DNA of 64,000 nucleotides from the human T2T-CHM13v2.0 reference genome, Homo sapiens. Position 1 is the first letter of the stretch, and the number at the start of each line of letters is the position of its first letter. A model generated the notes under the pieces. It made no database searches. It was not told the origin of the DNA and was given only the letters and a program-made list of their open reading frames with translations. The stretch lies in NCBI RefSeq assembly GCF_009914755.1, contig NC_060925.1; one strand, written 5' to 3'. This document shows positions 4,925 through 61,045 of this stretch, piece after piece. A program made the translations under genes and the position numbers.

Positions 4925-6290
4925 CACAAAAATATAGGCATAGCTACTTTATTCAGGGAGTGAAAGAAAAGTGACAATTGCACAGATAGTAGAAGCTCAT
5001 GCCAGGTGACAGACAGAGACAGAAGACATCAAAATAATTCTTTGATGGCACCCAAAGAGAAGCTCTGAAAGGCCGGTACAGCTGAGGACTTCCTTTGCTC
5101 AGTCTCCACCTGGACAGTGGCAGCATGGCAGCCTCAGAAAGGAAACCTTTTGCTGTCGGGGATCATCATGGGCAGATCACAGGCTAAGGGGAAAGAAGCT
5201 CCCTGTGTATCCCTGGATGGCTTTGATGAGAAGATGCAGGTGGAGCTGTGGAACGAGGTGAGCCAATTATCCCTATCCTTTCGTGGTCCTGATGAATTCC
5301 GAAGCTGTTACTTGCTCTTGGGTGGACACTTTGGCTGGCAGGGTGGGGAAGGTGTCACCAGAGGATATTTCTGCTGGCACTGCTGAGGTGGGCAGGGCTG
5401 TGGACACTTTGGTGGTGGGCAGGGCTCAGGGCACTTCAGGGGTGGACATGGCTCTGGACGCTTTGGCAGGCGGCACACAGGAGGTGGCTGGCAGGGCTGC
5501 TTACATTGCTACTGTTGATAAGACATCCTGCTGGAGTCTCAGAATCTGAAAGAAATTATATAACAGGGTTCACAGGAAGGGACTCCTACAAAGAAAAGCC
5601 AACGTTTATGTAATACCATGGGCTATTTCTCCAGTCTCCAAAAAATTATTTAAACTCCTAATTCCCTTTTCATGACTCTCTGGTTTCTCCTTTCCACTTT
5701 AGCAAATTGCTTTATCAACCCTGGGAAATCCTGTGTTTTCTCATGCAATTTTTCTAAAGAAAATATCTCTGTTATAAAGAATCAAGCATGAAAATAACCA
5801 CTTCATGAAAGGCAGTCACAAGTTCAGATACTCTGGGCAATCTCAGAAGCTATTCCTATCATCATTATCTGTTGTAAAGCCCCAGTGGGCTGATGGGCAA
5901 AGAGCAAAGGGCTGTTTGGGAAGAATTGCAGGCTCTCACACCTGCTAAAACACAAATGTTTGAAAAGGACACCAGAAAGATATAGAAAAAAGGAAAAACA
6001 CTTTGCTTTTACCTCTTCCTCAAATCAAAGCCTTCCTATTAACTTCGCTGTTCATATGAACACCAAGCTACTTACAAAAAAAAGCTAAAACAATGTGTCA
6101 TTATGATCTAATCCTAAGGTTCCATCCACTAAGTAGTGTCAAAACTGTCATCAGAGGTTTGGATCAACCATACTTTCTGTCTTCAGATTAAATTCAACTT
6201 TTGAGGGCCCAAAGAACAGAGAAATTCAAGTAAGCAGACTCACCAGGTTCTCCGAAGCAGATCGGTGCTCAAGTACCAGGAGTTTAGGAG
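4925..6290 (-). pseudogene. SPRR2C: SPRR2C pseudogene, two exons: exon 1 about 6244-6290, intron 5546-6243, exon 2 about 4925-5545; pseudo-CDS 5308-5526
   Basis: Reverse complement of 5308-5526 reads [71 protein letters not shown], with an in-frame TAG at 5509-5511. Donor CTG|GTGAGT at 6238-6243, acceptor TTTCTTTCAG 19 nt before the ATG, AATAAA at 4948-4953. Position next to SPRR2G fits SPRR2C. Confidence 0.93.
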
Positions 6291-6309
6291 TCATGAGGCT
6301 GAGAACCTC

Positions 6310-6480
6310 TTCACAGGGCCTGCTGCCCCACCCAGGGGGAAACGGAACTGCCTAAAATGGGCTGGTCCAGTAATGTCCCATCCAAAATGCAAATTTATCC
6401 ATAACTGGTATGACAGGGAATCTCAAAAAAGGAAATATCCTGTTCTGAGGTCTCCCGCTGGATTAAGTGCTCATGACTCA
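6310..6480 (-). promoter_or_regulatory. SPRR2-type proximal promoter of SPRR2C: degenerate TATA, octamer, Ets-like GGAA, AP-1
   Basis: TGTGAAGAG at the TATA position (6310-6315, 72 nt upstream of the donor); perfect ATGCAAAT at 6387-6394; AGGAAA at 6430-6435; perfect TGACTCA at 6474-6480. Octamer, Ets and AP-1 sites are known SPRR2A promoter elements. Confidence 0.75.
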
Positions 6481-38799: not shown

Positions 38800-39260
38800 T
38801 TTGTACCATCTCAGGATATTAATTACAAACAACAAAAGCTCACTCTGACTGATTAAACAGAAAAAGGGTTTATTAAAATATTATTGGGTAGATTATAGAA
38901 CTCTTGGAAAAGCCGCAGAACCAGGCTTGAGGCTAAGCATATAGGGGAAATGTCCAAAAACCACACCACAAAACTAGCCTGGTGAGGAAGTTCTACTGCC
39001 ACAGCGACTGCTCCACCATTGCTACATCATGCCAGGAACACATCTTTGCCTCCTCAGCCAGCCGCAAAAGGGAGCCACCACCCCTGCCAGCAAAATGTCT
39101 TCTGCAAGGAGACCCTCTTCCAATTGTTCCTTTCCAGAGCATAGCTCTGACTGGTAGAGCCTCCGTCACAGTGCGCACCCTGACTGCAAAACAGACTGTG
39201 AGATTTACTTTCTGGGTTCTACCTTGGGGAGAAGGAATACAAGTCTGTAAAATAGTCCAT
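38800..39260. mobile_element. Ancient ERVL/MaLR LTR fragment
   Basis: TCTCAGGATATTAATTACAAACAACAAAAGCTCACTCTGACTGATTAAACAGAAAAGGG..TTTATT resembles old MaLR/ERVL LTR ends. Confidence 0.4.
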
Positions 39261-39649: not shown

Positions 39650-40742
<1,093 letters not shown>

Positions 40743-41589
40743 CTAACTGGGTCCTAGTATTGGCTATGTAACCCTAGACAAGTTACTTTACATTTCTAGA
40801 CCTCAGTTCAGCAGTTGGAACACGTGGACTTTGGATTTTCTTCTTCCTGGAACTTCCTTTATGCACTCATGTTTGTTACTCACCCATGTATTTATCCATT
40901 GTCCATGTCTGCTTGTCAGTTTTAGTTACCTCCTACCCCCACCTGTCCAAGGTGCTCTTGTCCTCAGAAGATCCCACTGGCATGAATAAGACAGACTTGG
41001 AAACTTTTATCCTAGATAAAACTGGTCTGGAACACATAAAAAGTATTTCCCCAACAATTTTGATTCACTTCAATTCCTGAAATCTAACTTCTGACTTTCA
41101 AAGAAAATTCCACTTTGGCAGCTGTACAGGTACCAACAACAGTTTACCCTTACCTGGAAGAAGAGCCTTGGAGGAGAAAACACACCATGTCGGTATGGGT
41201 GTGACAAAGTCTACTTTTTCTAGCACTCCTGGGGCTCACAGAGAAGGCATTTATCAAGGGGCGAGATGAAAGCAGACTCAGATTTCATATAGCCAGTTCT
41301 TGCAGTCCATGTCAGTAAAAGTGAAAAAGCCCAGCAATAATGCATTGTCTCATTAAGGCTAATGTGAGTAAGATAATTCAAGTATGTAGATTTCTGGTAG
41401 TGTAATTTTATCTCAACAAAGAACTTAGAACAATGAGAAAAGTAAATAGAAACCATAATCCTATCATAACAGCCCCTGAAACCTGTGAGCGCAAGGGGGA
41501 TCTAGAATATTTCCAATGCCCCCTTGCAGTTAGTTAATCCCCTCCCAAAGGCACTGTTCAGATTCCTCACCATAGGTTAGTTTTCCTTA

Positions 41590-49900: not shown

Positions 49901-52900
49901 TTTTTGTGGTTAGTAGGCTATTAATTATTGCCTCAATTTCAGAACTTGTTATTGGTCTACTCAGGGATTCGACTTCTTCCTGGTTTAGACTTGGGAGTGT
50001 GTAATGTGTCCAGGAATGCATCCATTTCTCCTATATTTTCTAGTTTATTTGCGTAGAGGTGTTTATAGTGTTCTCTGATGGTAGTTTGTATTTCTGAGGG
50101 ATCAGTGGTGATATCCCCTTTATCATTTTTTATTGTGTCTGTTTGATTCTTCTCTCTTTTCTTCTTTGTTAGTCTGGCTAGCAGTCTATCTATTTTGTTA
50201 ATCTTTTCAAAAAACCAGCTCCTGGATTCATTTTTTTGAAGGGTTTTTCATGTCTCTATCTCCTTCAGTTCTGGTCAGATCTTAGTTACTTCTTGTCTCC
50301 TGCTAGCTTTTGAATTTGTTTGCTCTTGCTTCTCTAGTTCTTTTAGCTATCATGTTAGGGTGTCGATTTTAGATCTTTCCTGCTTTCTGATGTAGGCATT
50401 TAGTGCTATAAATTTCCCTCTTTATGCTGCTTTAGCTGTGTCCCAGAGATTCTGGTACATTGTGCCTTTGTCCTCATTGGTTTCAGAGAGCTTATTTATT
50501 TCTGCCTTAATTTCATTATTTACCCAGTAATCATTCAGGGGCAGGTTGTTCAGTTTCCATGTAGTTGTTCAGTTTTGAGTGAGTTTCTTAATCCTGACTT
50601 TTAATTTGATTGCACTGTGGTCTGAGAGACTGTTTGTTATAATTTCCATTCTTTTGCATTTGCTGAGGAGTGTTTTACTTCCAATTATGTGGTCAATTTT
50701 AGAATAAGTGCATTGTGGTGCTGAGAGGAATGTACGTTCTGTTGATTTGGGGTGAAGAGTTCTGTAGATGTCTATTAGGTCTGCTTGGTCCAGACCTGAG
50801 TTCAAGTCCTGAATATCCTTGTTAATTTTCTGTCTCATTCATCTGTCTAATACTGATAGTGGGGTGTTAAAGTCTCCCACTATTATTGTGTGAGAGTCTA
50901 AGTCTCCTTGAATGTCTCTAAGAACTTGCTTTATGAATCTGGGTGCTCCTGTATTGGGTGCATATATATTTAGGATAGTTAGCTCTTCTTGTTGCATTGA
51001 TCCCTTTACCATTATGTAATGTCTTTCTTTGTATTTTTTGACCTTTGTTGGTTTAAAATCAGTTTTATCAGAGACTAGAATTGCAATCCCTGCTCTTTTT
51101 TTTTCTATTTGCTACATCCCTTTATTTTGAGCCTATGTGTGTCTTTGCAAGTGAGATGGGTCTCCTGAATACAACACACCAATGGGTCTTGACTCTTTAT
51201 CCACTTTGCCAGTCTGTGTCTTGTAATTGGGGCATTTAGCCTATTTACATTTAAGGTTAATATTGTTATGTGTGAATTTGATCCTGTCATCATGATGCTA
51301 GCTGGTTATTTTACACATTAGTTAATACAGATTCTTCATAGTGTCGTTGGTCTTTATATTTTGGTATCTTTTTGCAGTGGCTGGTACCATTTTTTCCTTT
51401 CCATATTTAGTGCTTCCTTCAGGAGCTCTTGTAAGGTTGGCCTGGGGGTGACAAAATCACTCAGCATTTGCTTGTCTGTAAAGGATTTTATTTCTCCTTC
51501 ACTTATGAAACTTAGTTTGGCTGGATATGAAATTCTGGGTTGAAAATTCTTTTCTTTAGGAATGTTGAATATTGGCCCCCACCCTCTTCTGGCATGTAGG
51601 GTTTCTGCAGAGATACACTATTAGTCTGATGGGCTTCCCTTTGTAGGTAACCTGACCTTTCTCTCTGTCTGCCCTTAACATATTTTTTATTTCATTTCAA
51701 CCTTGGAGAATCTGACAATTATGTGTCTTGGGGTTGCTCTTCTCAAGGAGAATCTTAGAGGTGTTCTCTGTATTTCCTGAATTTGAATGTTGGCCTGCCT
51801 TGCTAGGTTGGGAAAGTTCTCCTCGATAACATCCTGAAGTGTGTTTTCCAACTTGGTTCCATTCTCCCCGTCACTTTCACATACACCAATCAATCGTATG
51901 TTTGCTCTTTTCACATAGTCCCATATTTCTTGGAGGCTTTGTTTGTTCCTTTTCATTCTTTTTTCTCTAATCTTGTCTTCATGCTTTATTTCATTAAGTT
52001 GATCTTCAATCTCTGATATCCTTTCTTCTGCTTGATCAATTCAGCTATTGATACTTGTGTATGCTTCACAAAGTTCTCGTGCTGTGTTTTTCAGCTCCAT
52101 CAGGTCATTTATCTTCTTCTCCAAACTGGTTATTCTAGTTAGCAATTCCTGTAGCCTTTTATCAAGGTTCTTAGCTTTCTTGCATTGGGTTAGAACATGC
52201 TCCTTTAGCTCAGAGGAGTTTGTTATTACCAACCTTCTGAAGCCTACTTCTGTCAATTCATCAAATTCATGCTCCATCCAGTTTTATGCCCTTGTTGGAG
52301 AGGAGTTGTGATCATTTGGAGGAGAAGAGGCATTCTTGGTTTTGGAATTTTCAGCATTTTGGGGCTGGTTTTTCCTCATCTTCATGGATTTATCCGCCTT
52401 TGAGCTTTAATGCTGACGCCCTTTGGATGGGGTTTTTGAGTGGGTGTCCTTTTTGTTGATGTTGATGTTATTGCTCTCTGTTTGTTAGTTTTCCTTCCAA
52501 CAGTCAGGCCCCTCTTCTGCAGGTCTGCTAGAGTTTGCTGGAGGTCCACTCCAGACCCTGTTTGCCTGGGTATTACCAGTGGAAGCTGCAGAACAGCAAA
52601 GATTGCTGCCTACTCCTTCCTCTGGAAGTTTCATCCCACAGGGGTACCTGCCTGATGCCAGCCAGAGCTCTCCTGTATGAGGTATCTGTCGACCACTCCT
52701 GGGAGGTGTCTCCCAGTCAGGAGGCACAGGGGTCAGGGACCCACTTGAGGAGGCAGTCTGTCCCTTAGTAGAGCTTGAGCACTGTGCTGGGAGATCTGCT
52801 GCTGTCTTCAGGGCTGGCAGGCAGGAAATTTTAAGTCTGCTGAAGCTGCACCCACAGCCACCCCTTCCCCCAGGTGCTCTGTCCCAGGGAGATGGGAGTT

Positions 52901-53666
52901 TTATTTATAAGCTCCTGACTGGGGCTGCTGCCTTTCTTTCAGAGATGCCCCACCCAGTGAGGAGGAATTTAGAGAGGCAGTCTGGCCACAGCCGCTTTGC
53001 CATGCTGTGGTGAGTTTGGCTTCCTTAACACTGTAAGGGGAAACGGCCTACTCAAGCCTCAGTAATGCTAGACACACCTCCCCACACCAAGCTCAATCCC
53101 AGGTCAACTTCAGACAGCTGTGCTGGCAGCAAGAATTTCAAGCCAGTGGTTCTTAGCTTGCTGGGCTCCATGGGACCCGCTGATCAAGATCACTTCGCTC
53201 CCTGGCTTCAACACCCTTTCCAGGAGAGTGAACAGCTCTGTCTCACTGGGGCACCAGGCACCACTGGTGTATGAAAAAAAACTCCTGCAGCTAGCTCAAG
53301 GTCTGCCCAAACAGCCACCTAGTTTTGTGCTTGAAACCCAGGACCCTCATGGTGTAGGCACACGAGGGAATACCCTGGTCTGTGGGTTGCCAAAACCATG
53401 GGTAGTATCTGGGCCGGGTAGCACAGTCCCTCACGGCTTCCTTTGGCTAGGGACGGTAGTTCCCCACCCCTTTGCACTTCCCGGGTGAGGCAACGCCCCA
53501 CCCTGCTTCTGCTCACCCTCCATGGGCTGCACCCAATGTCTAACCAGTCCCAATGAGATGAACCAGGTACCTCAGTTGGAAATGCAGAAATCACCTGCCT
53601 TCTGCGTTGGTCTTGCTGGGAGCTCCAGACCAGAGCTGTTCCTATTCAGTCATCTTGCCAGCTCTC
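46926..53666 (-). mobile_element. Near full-length L1PA7/L1PA8-like LINE-1 (5' UTR, ORF1, ORF2, 3' UTR, poly(A)); ORFs disrupted
   Basis: 5' end GAGAGCTGGCAAGATGACTGAATAGGAACAGC at 53666. ORF1 pieces at 52277-52041 and 51956-51687; ORF2 start MMTGSNSHITILTLNVN at 51293; [16 protein letters not shown]. Flanking repeats TTTAAGAATTTTTTTAT (46871-46887) and TTTAAGAAATTTTTTAT (53667-53683). Confidence 0.95.
47611..47938 (-). mobile_element. AluS (Sq/Sp-like) nested in the L1, containing an internal inverted duplication
   Basis: TSD CCTGACTTTTT on both sides; Alu body otherwise typical. Confidence 0.93.
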
Positions 53667-54649
53667 TTTAAGAAATTTTTTATCTATGTTCTTGAAAGAG
53701 GTTCACCAAAGTTTTTCTTTTACATTTGAAATTTTTATATTGTTTTCTTCTACTTCAACTTGAATTTCCATTTTACTTCTTTATGACATTTTTAGTGTAA
53801 CATATGCTTAAATATATTTATTGACTACTCTCTTTGAAAGAATGTGTAAGTACATTGAAATTGAAATATTTGTCTATTATTCCCTATGGTTATAAGGCTC
53901 TGTGTTTATAAATTCTTCTAAGTCAGACATCATTATACTTATTAGGATTAATAATAATTATTGTTCATTTTACCAAATAAAATATACTTATATTTTATAG
54001 ATAATTATATTTAAAGTTTTATTAGAAACATTTAATGAACTTATAAGAGCTGTCTCTTTTTTGTTTTCAATTACTTCATAGAACCATAGAAAATATTATC
54101 TGTTGATAGTTTCCATCTTTTTATATGTAAGTAACTAAGGAAACTTGTTTATGTGGCTACTCAAGTTGGGTTTCCTGGCAGAGATGAGGGAGATTGCCAG
54201 AACATACAATTTAGTATGCTCCCAGATTCTAACACATAAGATGGGCCATGACAAGGGATACTAATGTTCCTGAAGAAGTAATGATCAAGTTGTAAGTCAT
54301 AGGGGTAGTACAGAAGGTCCAGGGAAGTTGCCAAGGTGGGATGAGTAAGGAGAAAAAATGCCTTAGGAACAGGGGACACAGAGTCAAAGAAAGGACGATA
54401 CCAACTCCTGGGAGGGGCAGACACTGCAGTTCCTAGCCATCTGTGGGGCAGCCCCACAAAAGCCTCCTGTAGGGTGGGCAGTCTCAGGAGCGAGTGCAAT
54501 GGGGATGTCTTGTCACTGACATTAAAGAAAGGGGTGATGAGAGAGGGTGTTTCTCCCTTGTGGTATTTTGGGGAATAATCTTCTTCACTGATGTTGTCTT
54601 ATACTAAAGTACTTTCTTCTTTCTCTCAGTTTACTTTCAACTAGGGAAA

Positions 54650-54825
54650 ATTTCCTAGCAGCAGCAGAAATAAGGCAAAGTCCCCTGCCAGCACCACTCC
54701 CAACTCAGGTCCCACAGCCCTGTCCTCCCCAGGTGCCTGAGCCCTGTCTCCCACCCTTCATACAGTAGAAGTCCAGCTGTTAATACCACTTATGCCAGCA
54801 AGACTGCGCAGCAAAGCAGAAATGA
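54650..54825 (+). pseudogene. Decayed SPRR-like gene (relic A), coding exon
   Basis: TACTAA (54602-54607), pyrimidine tract, acceptor AG at 54628-54629, then 20 nt to ATT at the start-codon position. With one 1-nt frameshift it reads (M)S*QQQK*GKVPCQ/PLPTQVPQPCPPQVPEPCLPPFIQ*KSSC*YHLCQQDCAAKQK*. Confidence 0.8.
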
Positions 54826-55933
54826 CCCTCAGAAGCCACCTTCTCTGACCTGGACAAGAGGATACTGCATCCCCCGCCCACTTCCATCCCCTTACTTCCA
54901 GCAATAATAGGGACCACCACACAACCTAGAAGATGCTACCTGTCTTCAGATTCAAGATGGAAGATATTGTCATAGTCTACTGGGGTCTCCTCCCTGAATC
55001 TACAGCCCCTCCCAGCTTTTCACCCAGGAGACAACATGGTTTAGACAGAGTGCCACGTTTTCAAACCTTCCACCTGTGATCCAAATATGCCATATTTCCA
55101 CCGGCTACCTTCTCTACCACACTGCCTTCTGCTGGCTATATGAGATTCCTGCAAGAACACAGAACATTCACATCTCTGCCTCAATGGAATTCAAAAACTT
55201 CATTAACGTTTCTAGGAGCAAACATTGTTTAAAAAAATTAACACATGAAAACTGCTTAAATCAATGAAAAATTTGCCAGAATTCTTTACAGCACAACTCC
55301 ACATTCTTTGATGAAGACAATCACATTGTCTGTTTGTATTTTCTCCCTAATAATCTCCATAAATCCTAACAAAGCTCACCCCTTCCTCTGGACTTTGAAC
55401 CTATTCCAAGACCTATGATGTTTTTTTTTTCTCTCTCTGCTTCCCAATCAAACATATGTATCCCTGACTGGTCATGTCTCTGCTCTTTGCTGGAGATGTA
55501 AAAAAGTCAAGAGAGACAAAGTCACAGAGAGACAAAGGACAAATGGAGGAAAGTGGAGACTGAATGGTAAATCCTTGGAAGGACCCTAGAGGCAATCAGG
55601 GGCCACCCAAGAGTGACAAGGGGACCTGGTTCAAGTCAGAAGGTCTTCTTTTTCCCTCTGGTTGCCCAGTCTCAGTCTCTGATTTCAGCTGCCTCCAGAC
55701 CCACCTCTACATGAGGCACCTATCCATTTCTGATTAGGGACTCGCCATGCAAGGAAGGTGAGGAGAGTACACAAAGGAGCCATCAGTGTCAGGGCTGCAG
55801 GAGGGATGAGCATGTGACAGGCCCTGCAAGGTTCATAGATGTGTGAGTGCTCAGCATCTGGGACCAGAATTGTGAGCCTGGCTCTGCACAGAGCCCAGTC
55901 TGTTGGGGATGGACCCCAGAGACAGTTATTACT

Positions 55934-56286
55934 GCAGCAGTTCTCACACTACTTGGCCTTGAAAATAATTTACACACTTAAGATTATTAAGGACCCTAAG
56001 TAGATTTTATTCATGTGATTTACATCTATTGATATTTCTTGTATTAAAAATTAAAACTAGAAAATAACACATTTTACATAAGTAGATATTGCACTAGCTG
56101 GCAGAGTGATGATGTCATTGCATATCATCTACTCTCCGGAAAATTCTACCATAGACTAATGAAAAAATATGAGTAAAAAAGTCAAATAATGTCAGCATTA
56201 TGATTAAAATTGTTTTGATCTCACTGACCCTACTGAATGCATCTCAGGGACCCCAAGGTTCCCACACCACACTTTGACAACCACTG
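55934..56286. mobile_element. hAT-Charlie MITE
   Basis: CAGCAGTTCTCA...GGGACCCCAAGGTTCCCACACCACACTTTGACAACCACTG, with hAT-type TIRs. Confidence 0.7.
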
Positions 56287-56719
56287 GTCTAGGGCATGAT
56301 TGTAGGCCAGGTCTCCAGGGTCTCAGAGCACAACACACCACAGTAGCACAAGTCTCAAAGGGTTGAGGACATTCTCCTTGGTCTCAGCTTACTTGTGGGT
56401 TTTATTTATGCCTGTTGTTTAACTATCCAGCTAAATTAAGTTCTGACCTTTAATTCAATAATCATTAATCAGAACCAATTTAGCACTGCTAAATTGAGTT
56501 CTGTACCATTATTCAACAACCATTGACAACAACAGCTAGAAAGCATCTAGTTTATAAAACCTGAAGACAAAGAGAATAAGACACTGAGGCTCACTAGAGA
56601 AGCCTCCTCGGTTGTCTCCTGCAGCAGTGGGGACACACATGTGCTGCATGAACCATTAGGCTGATCTGACGAGGGCTTCTATTAGGCACAGAGGGCATGT
56701 GGGATGATGTATTGAATGT

Positions 56720-56762
56720 ATGTCTTCATAAGGGACAGCCTTGAATTATGTGCAGGCTTGTG
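56720..56762 (+). repeat. Copy 1 of a 43-bp local duplication (copy 2 at 59092-59134)
   Basis: 41/43 identical by manual alignment. Confidence 0.9.
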
Positions 56763-59091: not shown

Positions 59092-59134
59092 ATGTCTTCA
59101 TAAGGTACAGCCTTGAATTATGTGCAGACTTGTG
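59092..59134 (+). repeat. Copy 2 of the 43-bp local duplication
   Basis: Aligns to 56720-56762. Confidence 0.9.
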
Positions 59135-59583
59135 CTCCCTCCTCCAAACTTTTCCTTCCTCAGACTAAAACTCCCCTACTCCACTTTCCATTTTTTAACA
59201 GGCACTCTATCTTGGTGCTTCCCAAACTTTTTGCTTTTTTTCTGAATCATTGCAATGTGAGAATGATTGTCTCAGACAGCAGCATCCGTAACCAGCCTCA
59301 GCCCTCTGAGTTTGGAGTAGACATGGGCAGGCATCGGCTCCTTGGTGCAGCCCCAGAGATACTCCCCTTGGCTGAGTGCTGTGCTCCAATGGAGGCAACC
59401 ATGGCTTTGATCATGGCAGTGAGTGAGTGGGAGTGAAGGTCTTAGTCCCCAAGGATGGAGAATTAGGGAGAGGAGAGGGAATATCTCACATGTGAACATT
59501 CAGGAGGAAGCTCCTCCACTGCTGTCACTAAAGCATAAAAGTTTATCTCCTGTTTTTTGCAGTGTATCATCAACACAGGAAAG

Positions 59584-59719
59584 ATGACCTAGCAGCAGCT
59601 GCAGCAGTGCCAGATCCCCTGCCAGTCCCCTTCTGGGTCCCCAAGCCCTGCTCTGTACCCCACAGCTGGCAGAAGTGGACTTCCTCTCCATGCTAACAGG
59701 AATACCACCAAAGCCAAAG
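59584..59719 (+). pseudogene. Decayed SPRR-like gene (relic B), coding exon
   Basis: CACTAA (59526-59531), TTTTTTGCAG acceptor (59561-59562), 21 nt, then ATG. With two frameshifts it reads MT*QQLQQCQIPCQSPS/VPKPCSVPHSWQKWTSSPC*QEY/PKPK. Confidence 0.75.
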
Positions 59720-60589
59720 AGGCTCTTCTGAAGCCTCCCTTCCCCGCAGCATCTAGGCAGTACGTTGCTCCCTGCACCCTCTCCAATCTCTTTCTTCCAG
59801 AATCACAAAGCCCAGAAATTACCTTTCATCTACTGAAAGAGAAAGATACCTTCATAGACCAACAATCTGAGAGCAGTTCATCAAGGGTATCCTCCCGGCT
59901 CCTCCTCCAAGCAAGGATTGGACACGTGGGCCATGTTTCGGTCTTCTTTGGTAAACAGCAGACCTGCTCTCCATTCTCTATTTTGACACTGTGTGGTCAG
60001 GACCAGTCAGTTCATCTAACTGTTGCCTCCACCACCACTACTGCCACTGCTGGCTCAAGAAGGCATCTCAAGTATGGAGTTTTCCTTCCTTAGCTCTCTG
60101 TACCCCTGGGTTCCACCATTTTGGGGGTCTTAAGTAGCAAGGATGATCGAAATTCTAAGAAAGAAAAACTGCTTTAGACAATGGTAAAGTCTTAAGAATT
60201 TTCTCTTTCCAATCCTTCAGCTTCAATCAAGACAATTACAACATTTATTTATCACCTCCTCTCCTAAGAGAGCTGACCCCTCAGTCTGCTCCTAAGCCTG
60301 TTTTGAACATGCTGAGATGACTCTTCCTTTCCTCTAGAGGCATGGGGACTCTATCTCACTCATCACACACACCTCCTTCCCTCGTGCTCCCACCCTGAGC
60401 ACCCCACAGCCCACAAGACCCCAACTCTCATGAGCAACAAGGAGAAGACCTTCCCAGGCCACTGGGCCTCCATAGGTGGTGAGTGACTCCTCCCAGGTCC
60501 TTCCCAGAAAACAGCAGGAATTAGACAAAAGTACACTCAGGACCTTCCTGGGGGCCAGGTGTACCATCCTTCCCCTTCCTTATCCTCTT

Positions 60590-61045
60590 TTTAAATTTAT
60601 TTATATTTTTGTGGTAAGAATATTTAACATGAGCTCTATCCTCTTAACAAATTGTAAGTGTATTAATACAATGCAATATTGTTGACTATGGGTACAAAGT
60701 TGTTCAGCAGATCTCTAGAGCTTATTCATCTTACTTAATTATTTTATGCCTGTTGATTAATAACTCATTTCATCCTCCCCCTGTCCCTGGTAACCACTGT
60801 TACAGCCTTTGATTTAATGAATTTGACTATTTTTAGATACTTGATGTAAGTGGAATGATGCAGTATTTGTCTTTCTGTATTTGACTTATTTCACTGCATA
60901 ATGTCCTCAAGGGCCATTTATGTTGTTGAATAAGGCAGAATTTCTTTCCTTTTTAAGACTGGATAGTATTCTATCATGTGTATATACCACATTTTCTTCA
61001 TTCATCTGTTGATGGACATTTAGGTTATTTTCACATCTTAGCTAA
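60590..61045 (-). mobile_element. L1MA-like 3' end
   Basis: TTTTGTGGTAAGAATATTTAACATGAG...CAGCAGATCTCTAGAGCTTATTCATCTT. Confidence 0.8.

What the first reader, a model, noticed from the sequence alone, without database searches (positions are those of the whole stretch)
54650..54825. Relic A encodes an SPRR1/SPRR2 hybrid architecture
Seen: one 1-nt frameshift repairs the frame, and all four internal stops are TAG/TAA, one C>T change from Gln codons. The peptide has two 8-residue repeats (QVPQPCPP, QVPEPCLP), a tail IQ(Q)KSSC(Q)YHLCQQDCAA, and ends KQK*. Established: SPRR1 has 8-mer KVPEPCxP repeats and ends in KQK; SPRR2 has 9-mer PKCPEPCPP repeats and a two-part CQQK..PPCQQK tail. Inference: this mosaic may reflect an ancestral or recombinant SPRR type that no functional human gene retains.
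Basis: partly seen in the sequence, partly recalled or inferred. Interest (0 to 1): 0.8.

Follow-up and report, generated by a model that had tools for sequence, protein, structure and literature searches.

The report
Decayed SPRR-family pseudogene inside a lncRNA exon
This is the worn-out coding exon of an old skin-barrier (SPRR-type) gene, one of two tandem dead copies, now transcribed only as part of a non-coding RNA; its mixed look is better explained by inherited family-wide features than by a fusion of two living gene types.

Summary
At 54650-54825 (+) one 1-nt frame shift links a Q-rich head to two 24-nt units (QVPQPCPP, QVPEPCLP) and a tail ending KQK-TGA, with four TAG/TAA stops.

It is a real SPRR-family relic, not chance. 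Profiles built only from functional human genes find it: the SPRR2 DNA profile at E 2.6e-8 and the SPRR1 profile at E 2e-6. Composition-matched shuffles almost never reach its scores.

The "SPRR1/SPRR2 hybrid" reading is only partly supported.
- The head matches the N-terminal motif [18 protein letters not shown] shared by EDC genes across amniotes (PMC4245816), so it is not SPRR2-specific.
- The SPRR1 profile scores the relic (23.0 bits) no higher than true SPRR2 genes (24.8 and 18.4 bits).
- The tail matches nothing significantly.
- The first stop aligns with the Tyr3 codon, not Gln.

A paralogous relic B lies 4.9 kb downstream (ATG 59584) and shares the codon-3 TAG. The A/B split looks as deep as the oldest SPRR paralog splits.

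Relic A's splice acceptor is now the start of the last exon of lncRNA LOC101928009.

Most likely this is an ancient, separate SPRR lineage that died long ago. Orthologues could not be examined.

The parts
54488..54629 (+). Remnant of the 3' end of the ancestral intron, ending in the polypyrimidine tract and AG acceptor (CTCTCAG, 54623-54629)
   Evidence: Aligns with 59421-59562 upstream of relic B: blastn 54488-54722 vs 59421-59650, 62% over 240 nt, E 1.3e-10. Global alignment z 5.4 vs shuffles. The acceptor abuts the annotated start of LOC101928009 exon 3 at 54630.
54630..54649 (+). 20-nt 5' leader between the acceptor and the former start codon
   Evidence: Leader lengths in the paralogs can be read from the alignment and the flanks printed (about 19-21 nt; my count). 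Relic B has 21 nt.
54650..54691 (+). Head, 14 codons: ATT (former ATG), S, TAG (54656), QQQ, K, TAA (54671), G (former Cys), K V P C Q
   Evidence: Codon table. Aligned with SPRR2G from the acceptor through PCQPP. Head region best against SPRR2G, z 8.2, 0 of 300 shuffles. Fits the SEDC motif [18 protein letters not shown].
54692..54693 (+). Frame-shift site: two bases (CA) where SPRR2 genes have CCA (Pro)
   Evidence: The exact position of the lost base cannot be fixed more closely than about 54692-54700.
54694..54705 (+). Linker P L P T
54706..54753 (+). Two 24-nt (8-codon) units QVPQPCPP and QVPEPCLP
   Evidence: TRF period 24, 2.0 copies, 83%. Direct repeat at spacing 24. 18 of 24 identical. 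Local scores: SPRR1A/B 26 (z about 8), SPRR2B/E 24 (z about 6.6), SPRR3 19 (z 6.3), each reached by 0 of 300 shuffles.
54754..54825 (+). Tail PFIQ*KSSC*YHLCQQDCAAKQK plus TGA; stops TAG 54766 and TAA 54781; KQK 54814-54822
   Evidence: No significant match to any paralog tail. K-Q-K-stop occurs 6 times in both strands of the window.
54630..56227 (+). Last exon of lncRNA LOC101928009 (NR_110685.1), which begins at the relic's acceptor; ATTAAA at 56203
   Evidence: Hub annotation. Canonical GT-AG at all junctions and the poly(A) signal checked.
59555..59756 (+). Relic B, the tandem paralog: acceptor TTTTGCAG, 21-nt leader, ATG 59584, ACC, TAG 59590, QQLQQCQIPCQSPSG, then in another frame a single VPKPC unit (59637-59651) and a decayed tail
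   Evidence: SPRR2 DNA profile E 1.4e-7. SPRR2G local alignment z 14.7, 0 of 200 shuffles.

Best explanation
Relic A is the decayed single coding exon of an unprocessed pseudogene of the SPRR / single-coding-exon EDC family. It is one of a tandem pair (A at 54650, B at 59584, both on the + strand) between SPRR2G and LELP1. The pair belongs to a lineage separate from the 12 functional human SPRR genes.

Its ancestor would have been a small cornified-envelope precursor. In that protein the Q/K-rich ends serve as transglutaminase cross-linking sites and the central PEPC units act as a spacer. This function rests on established knowledge of SPRRs and was not tested here.

The gene is dead several times over: ATG to ATT, a stop at codon 3, three further stops and a 1-nt deletion. 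The mosaic look is mostly a mix of family-wide inherited states:
- the pan-SEDC head;
- PEPC units with the 8-codon period that SPRR1/3 also keep;
- the KQK end that SPRR1/3/4/5 keep.
It is not a fusion of SPRR1 with SPRR2.

Today its only visible role is passive. Its old splice acceptor is used as the start of the last exon of lncRNA LOC101928009, so the relic is transcribed but has no SPRR reading frame.

Shown: family homology, the lesions, the tandem paralog and the use of the acceptor in the annotated transcript. Inferred: the age, the separate lineage, ancestral rather than recombinant origin, and lack of function.
For: Family homology
- DNA profiles built only from functional genes and run over 134 kb (window plus 70 kb downstream) hit relic A. 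The SPRR2 profile matched 54615-54851 (model positions 12-232 of 294) at E 2.6e-8, 29.1 bits. The SPRR1 profile matched 54683-54779 at E 2e-6.
- In-house protein profiles scored the relic with X at every break. SPRR2: 36.8 bits against shuffles of 17.6 +/- 3.2, reached by 0 of 500. SPRR1: 27.1 against 13.1 +/- 3.2, reached by 1 of 500.

Gene structure
- The acceptor, the 20-nt leader and the head align with SPRR2G from position -28.
- Intron homology with relic B shows an unprocessed copy.

Separate lineage
- The SPRR2 profile gives the true SPRR2 genes 302-322 bits, but relic A only 29.1, about the level of PRR9 at 33.7.
- In the tree of head regions, A and B join each other with support 89/89.

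Inherited rather than hybrid features
- The MSY...[11 protein letters not shown] head is described as inherited from the amniote ancestor (PMC4245816, section 8).
- KQK ends 5 of the 12 functional SPRR genes, covering four of the five classes.
- The SPRR1 profile scores SPRR2C at 24.8 and SPRR2G at 18.4 bits, the same range as the relic's 23.0.

Age
- The A-B intron alignment gives z 5.4. SPRR1A-SPRR1B and SPRR2G-SPRR2A each give z 4.1, while the younger pairs SPRR3-SPRR3ps and SPRR2A-SPRR2B give 14.6 and 28.

Transcription
- The annotated exon starts exactly at the relic's acceptor, with canonical splice sites.
Against: - Pfam finds nothing in either piece at E <= 10. In the whole-genome scans the relic is not among the 12 SPRR2-model matches or the 150 listed of 170 Cornifin matches. 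The same Pfam library also gives no family for SPRR5 and leaves SPRR4 below its cut-off, so this weighs little.
- Whole-genome searches found no link between the relic and SPRR genes at E <= 10. This holds for the relic peptide (17 matches, only itself significant) and for SPRR1B. SPRR4, searched at E <= 1, also found none. The homology is visible only in focused comparisons.
- The head tree is weak. The relics sit on the SPRR2/PRR9 side at only 79/79, and the AU test does not reject placing them with SPRR1/3 (p 0.18).
- The 8-codon period rests on just two units.
- The tail frame contains two stops while the other two frames are open. The KQK end could therefore be a coincidence or could match an internal QQK-C of SPRR4 (19 of 24 bases; z 2.7 with 7 of 200 shuffles, z 3.2 with 5 of 300; 14 targets tested).
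- No remnant of exon 1 or a promoter was found.
- No orthologue from another species could be examined, so age and lineage are inferred from human paralogs alone.
Confidence: 0.72

Rival explanations
1. Recombinant hybrid: unequal crossing-over or gene conversion joined an SPRR2-type 5' half to an SPRR1-type 3' half, and the product later died.
For: The head scores best against SPRR2G (z 8.2), while SPRR1/3/4/5 reach z 2.4 or less. The repeat block scores slightly higher against SPRR1A/B (26) than against SPRR2B/E (24). The best whole-exon local alignments are head to SPRR2G and repeats plus early tail to SPRR1A.
Against: - Identity to either putative parent is only about 65-75%, with no sharp switch.
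- The head motif is pan-SEDC.
- The SPRR2 DNA profile covers the relic from the acceptor through the repeats in one match.
- True SPRR2 genes cross-score with the SPRR1 profile as well as the relic does.
- Relic B, whose head is the more SPRR2-like, also carries a VPKPC unit. The Val unit therefore belongs to the A/B lineage as a whole.
Confidence: 0.07
2. Degenerate SPRR2 copy: an old duplicate of the SPRR2G-like founder of the SPRR2 array, in inverted orientation. Its 9-codon units each lost one codon, and its tail drifted after or before death.
For: - SPRR2G, the nearest SPRR2 gene and the most divergent one, is the closest paralog of both relics. Whole-exon z is 11.2 for A and 14.7 for B.
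- The SPRR2 profiles give the highest scores.
- In the protein-profile alignment the relic units fit SPRR2 units with a single-residue gap each.
Against: - Both units, and relic B's single unit, have Val where SPRR2 has Cys. The period is exactly 24 nt in both A units, which would need parallel one-codon losses.
- The terminus is KQK, not KSK.
- The relic's score against the SPRR2 profile is at PRR9 level, a tenth of that of true SPRR2 genes.
- Both relics have one more head codon than SPRR2.
Confidence: 0.17
3. Chance resemblance: a C/A/G-rich stretch that happens to read like an SPRR after a chosen frame shift and stop read-through.
For: Pfam and all genome-scale searches miss it. The reading needs five repairs in 58 codons. 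The tail has no significant match.
Against: - 0 of 200-500 shuffles reach the observed scores with SPRR1A/B, seven SPRR2 genes and the SPRR2 profile.
- Profile E-values are 2.6e-8 and 2e-6.
- Splice acceptor, leader length, head, repeats and terminus lie in the same order and spacing as in SPRR genes.
- A second copy with the same layout lies 4.9 kb away.
- The locus is inside the SPRR cluster.
Confidence: 0.01
4. Working non-coding exon: the relic matters today as part of LOC101928009, for example as a regulatory RNA in differentiating epithelia, as has been claimed for the transcribed pseudogene SPRR2C.
For: RefSeq lists a spliced, polyadenylated transcript that uses the relic's acceptor (annotation). 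Papers claiming lncRNA roles for SPRR2C exist (PMC7810847 and PMC8386546, seen in the search listing only).
Against: Nothing here tests function. Only 1 paper in the library names LOC101928009, in an unrelated ovarian-cancer study. The spliced RNA holds only short ORFs of 30-64 aa, none SPRR-like. This reading does not conflict with the pseudogene origin.
Confidence: 0.1

Closest known systems
SPRR2 genes (SPRR2A-G), especially SPRR2G, 40 kb upstream on the opposite strand
   Same: Same exon layout: acceptor, then a leader of about 20 nt, then the start codon. Same head, M-S-(Y)-Q-run-C-K-x-P-C-Q-P-P. PEPC-containing proline units. Best overall profile score.
   Different: - Period is 24 nt, not 27, with Val in place of the first Cys of each unit.
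- One extra head codon.
- Ends KQK, not KSK.
- Scores 29 bits on the SPRR2 DNA profile against 302-322 for SPRR2G/2C.
- Opposite strand.
- Dead.
SPRR1A/SPRR1B and SPRR3 (Pfam Cornifin, PF02389)
   Same: 8-residue xVPEPCxP units. A 16-base identical run, AGGTGCCTGAGCCCTG, shared with the last SPRR1A/B unit (my count in the alignment). KQK terminus.
   Different: - No duplicated head (SPRR1 has QPCxPPPQ twice).
- The tail PSTVTPAPAQQKT is not recognisable.
- No Pfam Cornifin match.
- The SPRR1 profile score is no higher than that of SPRR2 genes.
SPRR2C, the annotated transcribed pseudogene in the same window (4933-6349, - strand)
   Same: An SPRR-family coding exon disabled by a premature TAG early in the Q-run, and still transcribed as a non-coding RNA.
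   Different: SPRR2C is a young, nearly intact SPRR2 copy (322 bits, one stop). Relic A is old, has five lesions plus a lost start, and belongs to no living class.
PRR9 and the pan-amniote SEDC head motif (Strasser et al. 2014, PMC4245816)
   Same: The head MSF/Y..QQCKQPC.PPP. Same strand and neighbourhood as the relics. PRR9 scores about the same against the SPRR2 profile (33.7 vs 29.1 bits).
   Different: PRR9 has no PEPC tandem units and ends GKGK. Direct relic-PRR9 similarity is weak (z 1.7 for A, 4.2 for B).

Membership tests
SPRR / single-coding-exon EDC gene family (as a pseudogene) | Lies in the epidermal differentiation complex between IVL and LOR | tested here: met
   Hub annotation places it between SPRR2G and LELP1. 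LELP1, PRR9 and LOR ORFs were found downstream in L044, L045 and L050.
SPRR / single-coding-exon EDC gene family (as a pseudogene) | Whole ORF in the last exon, with the start codon about 20 nt after the splice acceptor | tested here: met
   CTCTCAG, then a 20-nt leader, then ATT at the position of ATG in relic B and all paralogs. Exon 1 and the promoter were not found.
SPRR / single-coding-exon EDC gene family (as a pseudogene) | N-terminal motif [18 protein letters not shown] | tested here: met
   In degenerate form: I-S-stop-QQQK-stop-G-K-V-P-C-Q-(P)-P-L-P. Relic B keeps M, the Cys and PCQ. Motif taken from PMC4245816, section 8.
SPRR / single-coding-exon EDC gene family (as a pseudogene) | Central tandem proline-rich units containing PEPC | tested here: met
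   Two 24-nt units. Significant against SPRR1, SPRR2 and SPRR3 units.
SPRR / single-coding-exon EDC gene family (as a pseudogene) | Match to a curated family model above its cut-off (Pfam PF02389 or PF14820) | tested here: not met
   No family at E <= 10 for either piece. The functional genes SPRR5 (no family) and SPRR4 (24.6 bits, below the 34.8 cut-off) fail too, so this feature does not define the wider family.
SPRR / single-coding-exon EDC gene family (as a pseudogene) | Intact reading frame | tested here: not met
   Lost ATG, four stops and one frame shift. Hence a pseudogene.
SPRR1-type (cornifin) | 8-residue KVPEPCxP units | tested here: met
   Period 24 nt, Q-V-P-Q/E-P-C-x-P. Only two units.
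SPRR1-type (cornifin) | Duplicated head (QPCxPPPQ ... [14 protein letters not shown]) and tail PSTVTPAPAQQKTKQK | tested here: not met
   Single head. Tail region z 2.2 or less against SPRR1A/B, and only the terminal KQK is shared.
SPRR1-type (cornifin) | Scores with an SPRR1 profile better than members of other classes do | tested here: not met
   Relic A 23.0 bits, SPRR2C 24.8, SPRR2G 18.4.
SPRR2-type | 9-residue PKCPEPCPP units | tested here: not met
   Period is 24 nt, not 27, and Val stands at the first Cys position.
SPRR2-type | Two-part tail CQQK...PPCQxK..PPKSK | tested here: not met
   Tail region z between -0.7 and 0.6 against all six SPRR2 genes tested. With correct 3' ends z was 2.3 or less. 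Ends KQK.
SPRR2-type | Profile score in the range of SPRR2 genes | tested here: not met
   29.1 bits against 302-322 bits for SPRR2G and SPRR2C. PF14820 found only the 7 SPRR2 loci in the genome.

The most novel reading that the evidence does not exclude
Relics A and B are the last traces of a sixth SPRR class. It would have a single pan-SEDC head, cornifin-type 8-residue Val-Pro-x-Pro-Cys units and a KQK end. It would have branched near the SPRR1/SPRR2 split and was already disabled, by the shared codon-3 TAG, around the time the two copies duplicated, that is early in placental evolution. If so, relic A preserves an intermediate state showing that the 9-residue SPRR2 unit is derived from an 8-residue one. 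An intact orthologue might survive in SPRR-rich mammals; papers report 34 SPRR genes in the elephant and 21 in the dugong.
Probability: 0.3. Interest if true: 0.45.

Novelty: new member of a known kind. Interest (0 to 1): 0.3.

Why it matters
The human SPRR cluster is usually counted as 12 genes (passages in PMC8192740 and PMC11039687), and the table supplied lists no pseudogene here. Two old dead copies beside SPRR2G, plus an SPRR3-like one between SPRR3 and SPRR1B, add to the birth-and-death record of a fast-evolving skin-barrier locus.

Relic A may also hold an intermediate repeat form between the SPRR1 and SPRR2 types. That would make the order of events in the family testable with a simple multi-species alignment.

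It is also a small, clean example of a lncRNA exon built on a dead gene's splice acceptor. It is not a surprise for specialists, because SPRR pseudogenes are already reported in other mammals.

Tried and rejected
- Pfam on both read-through pieces gave nothing.
- Protein searches with the frame-2 read-through found no relative. The 5.8-billion library gave 1 candidate and none scored. The 1.84-billion library gave 0 hits. I do not know whether either library holds mammalian proteins, so neither result shows that orthologues are absent.
- Genome-scale searches of the human assembly with the relic peptide, SPRR1B, SPRR4 and both Pfam models never linked the relic to SPRR genes.
- Search for exon 1 or a promoter remnant: blastn of 52500-56300 against all paralog loci found only the coding-exon matches.
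- 3' UTR similarity: none. In one search the SPRR2 sequences carried the wrong flanks (300 nt upstream, only 60 nt downstream). One search repeated the test with 400 nt downstream, again with no result.
- A motif after the stop that looked like the SPRR3 3' UTR scored z 1.6 only.
- A possible match of AAKQK-TGA-PS to the internal PAQQKCPS of SPRR4 stayed marginal (z 2.7-3.2 with 14 targets).
- My idea that the TAA at 54781 is a second stop shared with relic B was dropped. MAFFT aligns relic B's TAA (59694) with relic A's CAG (54796).
- LINC01527 lies between IVL and SPRR5, not here.
- The ruminant PRD-SPRRII family was searched (listing only) and not followed.
- Earlier findings of this scan were not open to the session.
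- The K2P distances are near saturation: aligned identity 0.61 against 0.59 for shuffles. I use only the alignment-score z values.

Full report
WHAT IS THERE

On the + strand a polypyrimidine tract and AG (CTCTCAG, 54623-54629) are followed by a 20-nt leader. Then comes ATT TCC TAG CAG CAG CAG AAA TAA GGC AAA GTC CCC TGC CAG (54650-54691). After two stray bases (54692-54693) the next frame reads PLPT, QVPQPCPP, QVPEPCLP, PFIQ*KSSC*YHLCQQDCAAKQK and TGA (54694-54825).

Tandem Repeats Finder reports period 24, 2.0 copies, 83% matches at 54706-54752. The two units are 18 of 24 identical. So are its statements about SPRR1 and SPRR2, which I checked on translations taken from the same genome.

IS IT MORE THAN CHANCE?

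Genome-scale tools do not see it.
- Pfam finds no family in either piece at E <= 10.
- Six-frame scans of the whole assembly with Pfam Cornifin (170 matches, 150 listed) and Pfam SPRR2 (12 matches, the 7 SPRR2 loci over cut-off) do not list it.
- The relic peptide finds only itself in the genome: 17 matches, the next best at E 1.04.
- SPRR1B and SPRR4 as queries do not reach it.
- Two very large protein libraries gave nothing. I do not know whether they hold mammalian proteins.

These misses weigh little. The same Pfam library gives no family for functional SPRR5 and leaves SPRR4 below cut-off.

Focused tests are clear.
- Local DNA alignment of 54590-54885 gave z 10.8 with SPRR1A, 9.5 with SPRR1B, 11.2 with SPRR2G and 7.1-10.1 with the other SPRR2 genes. 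No score was reached by any of 200 Markov shuffles. LELP1, PRR9 and SPRR4 gave z 1.7-2.7.
- DNA profiles built only from functional genes and run over 134 kb hit relic A with the SPRR2 profile (54615-54851, model 12-232 of 294, E 2.6e-8, 29.1 bits) and with the SPRR1 profile (54683-54779, E 2e-6, 23.0 bits).
- Protein profiles from the human paralogs scored the relic, with X at every break, as follows:
  - SPRR2: 36.8 bits against 17.6 +/- 3.2 for 500 composition-matched shuffles; reached by 0 of 500.
  - SPRR1: 27.1 against 13.1 +/- 3.2; 1 of 500.
  - SPRR1+3: 24.2; 0 of 500.
  - SPRR4: 23.3; 1 of 500.
  - LELP1: 25.0; 0 of 500.
  - SPRR5: 17.9; 291 of 500.
  - PRR9: 15.1; 18 of 500.

The relic is real.

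A SECOND COPY

Self-comparison of the window showed that 54488-54722 matches 59421-59650 (62% over 240 nt, E 1.3e-10) and 55239-55350 matches 60156-60267.

At 59555 there is another acceptor, then a 21-nt leader, then ATG ACC TAG CAG CAG CTG CAG CAG TGC CAG ATC CCC TGC CAG. After a shift of frame come a single VPKPC unit and a decayed tail. This relic B keeps the ATG and the head Cys that relic A has lost.

Because the match runs into the intron, both are unprocessed DNA-level duplicates. No further relic was found in the window or the next 70 kb.

THE LESIONS

- Relic A has ATT where relic B and every paralog have ATG.
- The first stop, TAG 54656, aligns with the TAT/TAC Tyr3 codon of all SPRR2 genes and with the Y of the conserved MSY motif. 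Relic B has the same TAG at the same codon.
- That TAG is either older than the A/B duplication, or spread by gene conversion, or arose twice. I cannot tell which.
- TAA 54671 and TAG 54766 align with CAG in relic B, which supports a Gln origin.
- TAA 54781 has no reliable counterpart. My first idea that it is shared with relic B did not survive the MAFFT alignment.
- The frame shifts of A and B lie at different places in the alignment with SPRR2G.

DOMAIN BY DOMAIN (300 shuffles per region)

- Head plus leader (54609-54700): SPRR2G z 8.2 (0 of 300). Other SPRR2 genes z 3.4-3.9 (1-4 of 300). SPRR1A/1B/3/4/5 z 0.1-2.4.
- Repeats (54701-54757): SPRR1A/B score 26 (z about 8). SPRR2B/E 24 (z about 6.6). 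SPRR3 19 (z 6.3). All reached by 0 of 300.
- Tail (54758-54830): nothing above z 2.2.
- 3' flank: nothing, also when repeated with correct SPRR2 3' ends.

The head looks SPRR2-like and the repeats are about equally like both types. Only the 24-nt period and the Val are SPRR1/3-like. The tail is unassignable except for its KQK-stop, a pattern that occurs 6 times in both strands of the window.

WHY "HYBRID" IS NOT THE BEST READING

1. Strasser et al. 2014 (PMC4245816, section 8 read in full) describe the N-terminal motif [18 protein letters not shown] in human, chicken and lizard single-coding-exon EDC proteins and trace it to the amniote ancestor. PRR9, two genes downstream, has it too. The head is thus an inherited family trait, not an SPRR2 signature.
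2. KQK ends SPRR1A, SPRR1B, SPRR3, SPRR4 and SPRR5. Only SPRR2 ends KSK.
3. The SPRR1 DNA profile scores genuine SPRR2C (24.8 bits) and SPRR2G (18.4) in the same range as relic A (23.0).
4. Similarity to either putative parent is only about 65-75%, with no sharp switch.
5. Relic B, whose head is the more SPRR2-like, also has a Val-Pro-x-Pro-Cys unit.

The relic is not an SPRR2 gene in the narrow sense either.
- It scores a tenth of what SPRR2G and SPRR2C score on the SPRR2 profile, about the level of PRR9.
- It has one more head codon than SPRR2.
- Its period is 24, not 27.

A maximum-likelihood tree of the head region used 13 rows and 104 of 117 columns. It joins A with B (89/89) and puts them on the SPRR2/PRR9 side of a weak split (79/79). 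AU tests reject none of three groupings: with SPRR2 (p 0.40), with SPRR2G (p 0.46) or with SPRR1/3 (p 0.18).

AGE

Over the last 179 nt of the intron the alignment-score z values against shuffles were:
- A vs B: 5.4
- SPRR1A vs SPRR1B: 4.1
- SPRR2G vs SPRR2A: 4.1
- SPRR1B vs SPRR3: 4.4
- SPRR3 vs its nearby pseudogene: 14.6
- SPRR2A vs SPRR2B: 28

Identities are near saturation, so I give no date. The A/B split looks as deep as the oldest splits in the family. From my own knowledge, not tested here, SPRR1A and SPRR1B both exist in mouse and human, which would put such splits before the primate-rodent divergence.

PRESENT STATE

RefSeq's lncRNA LOC101928009 has exons 39070-39197, 40665-41192 and 54630-56227. 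All junctions are canonical GT-AG, and the last exon starts exactly at the relic's acceptor. ATTAAA lies at 56203. The spliced RNA has only short ORFs of 30-64 aa, none SPRR-like.

The library holds one paper naming this RNA, in an unrelated context. I found no paper describing these relics. The searches were made, with passages read in PMC8192740, PMC10791643, PMC5222828, PMC11039687 and PMC4245816. Two of those papers count 12 human SPRR genes, and one mentions pseudogenised SPRRs in the dugong. Supplementary tables of those papers were not opened and might list such remnants.

VERDICT

The thing is an old, unprocessed SPRR-family pseudogene, one of a tandem pair, reused as a lncRNA exon. 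The hybrid interpretation is partly supported as a description and poorly supported as a mechanism. A deep, separate lineage keeping ancestral states fits better.

The decisive test, orthologous intervals from other mammals, could not be run with the tools at hand.

Noticed in passing
window 59584-60090 (+): In relic B the head frame stays open for 166 codons after the TAG at codon 3 (59593-60090). Only 2 of 6,983 stop-to-stop runs in the six frames of the window are that long. Pfam finds nothing in it, and beyond the head it does not look SPRR-like. It could be chance, or a hint that this copy stayed coding in a shifted frame until recently.
   Followed up: partly
L052:715-1010 (G000:C1:152160715-152161010, +), outside the window: An SPRR3-like pseudogene lies between SPRR3 and SPRR1B. 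It reads MSSHKQKQPFTSPPQLQQQQVKQHSQPLP-stop, then after a frame shift GNTKIPELGCTKIPEPGCTKVLES...PAQQKSK-stop-K-stop. It is much younger than the relics: intron alignment z 14.6 against SPRR3. I did not check whether it is annotated.
   Followed up: partly
window 56720-56762 and 59092-59134 (+): A 43-nt direct repeat, 95% identical, lies between the two relic units but off their common diagonal. Its nature was not examined.
   Followed up: no
genome-wide: In a six-frame scan of the genome the Pfam Cornifin model passes its own cut-off at dozens of proline-rich tandem-repeat loci on other chromosomes (for example C6:168.95 Mb, C8:142-144 Mb, C9:146-147 Mb). It misses SPRR4 and SPRR5 as proteins. 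It is a poor classifier for this family.
   Followed up: no
window 60600-61040 (+): This stretch matches sequence near SPRR2A, 2B, 2C, 2D, PRR9, SPRR3 and LOR at 64-73% identity in both orientations. It is most likely an interspersed repeat and not part of the relic.
   Followed up: no
L053:4217-4522 (G000:C1:152085217-152085522, +), outside the window: SPRR5 in this assembly reads as 101 residues with eight PPPQQCC/PPPQQYC units and ends TSKQK. It gets no Pfam family.
   Followed up: no
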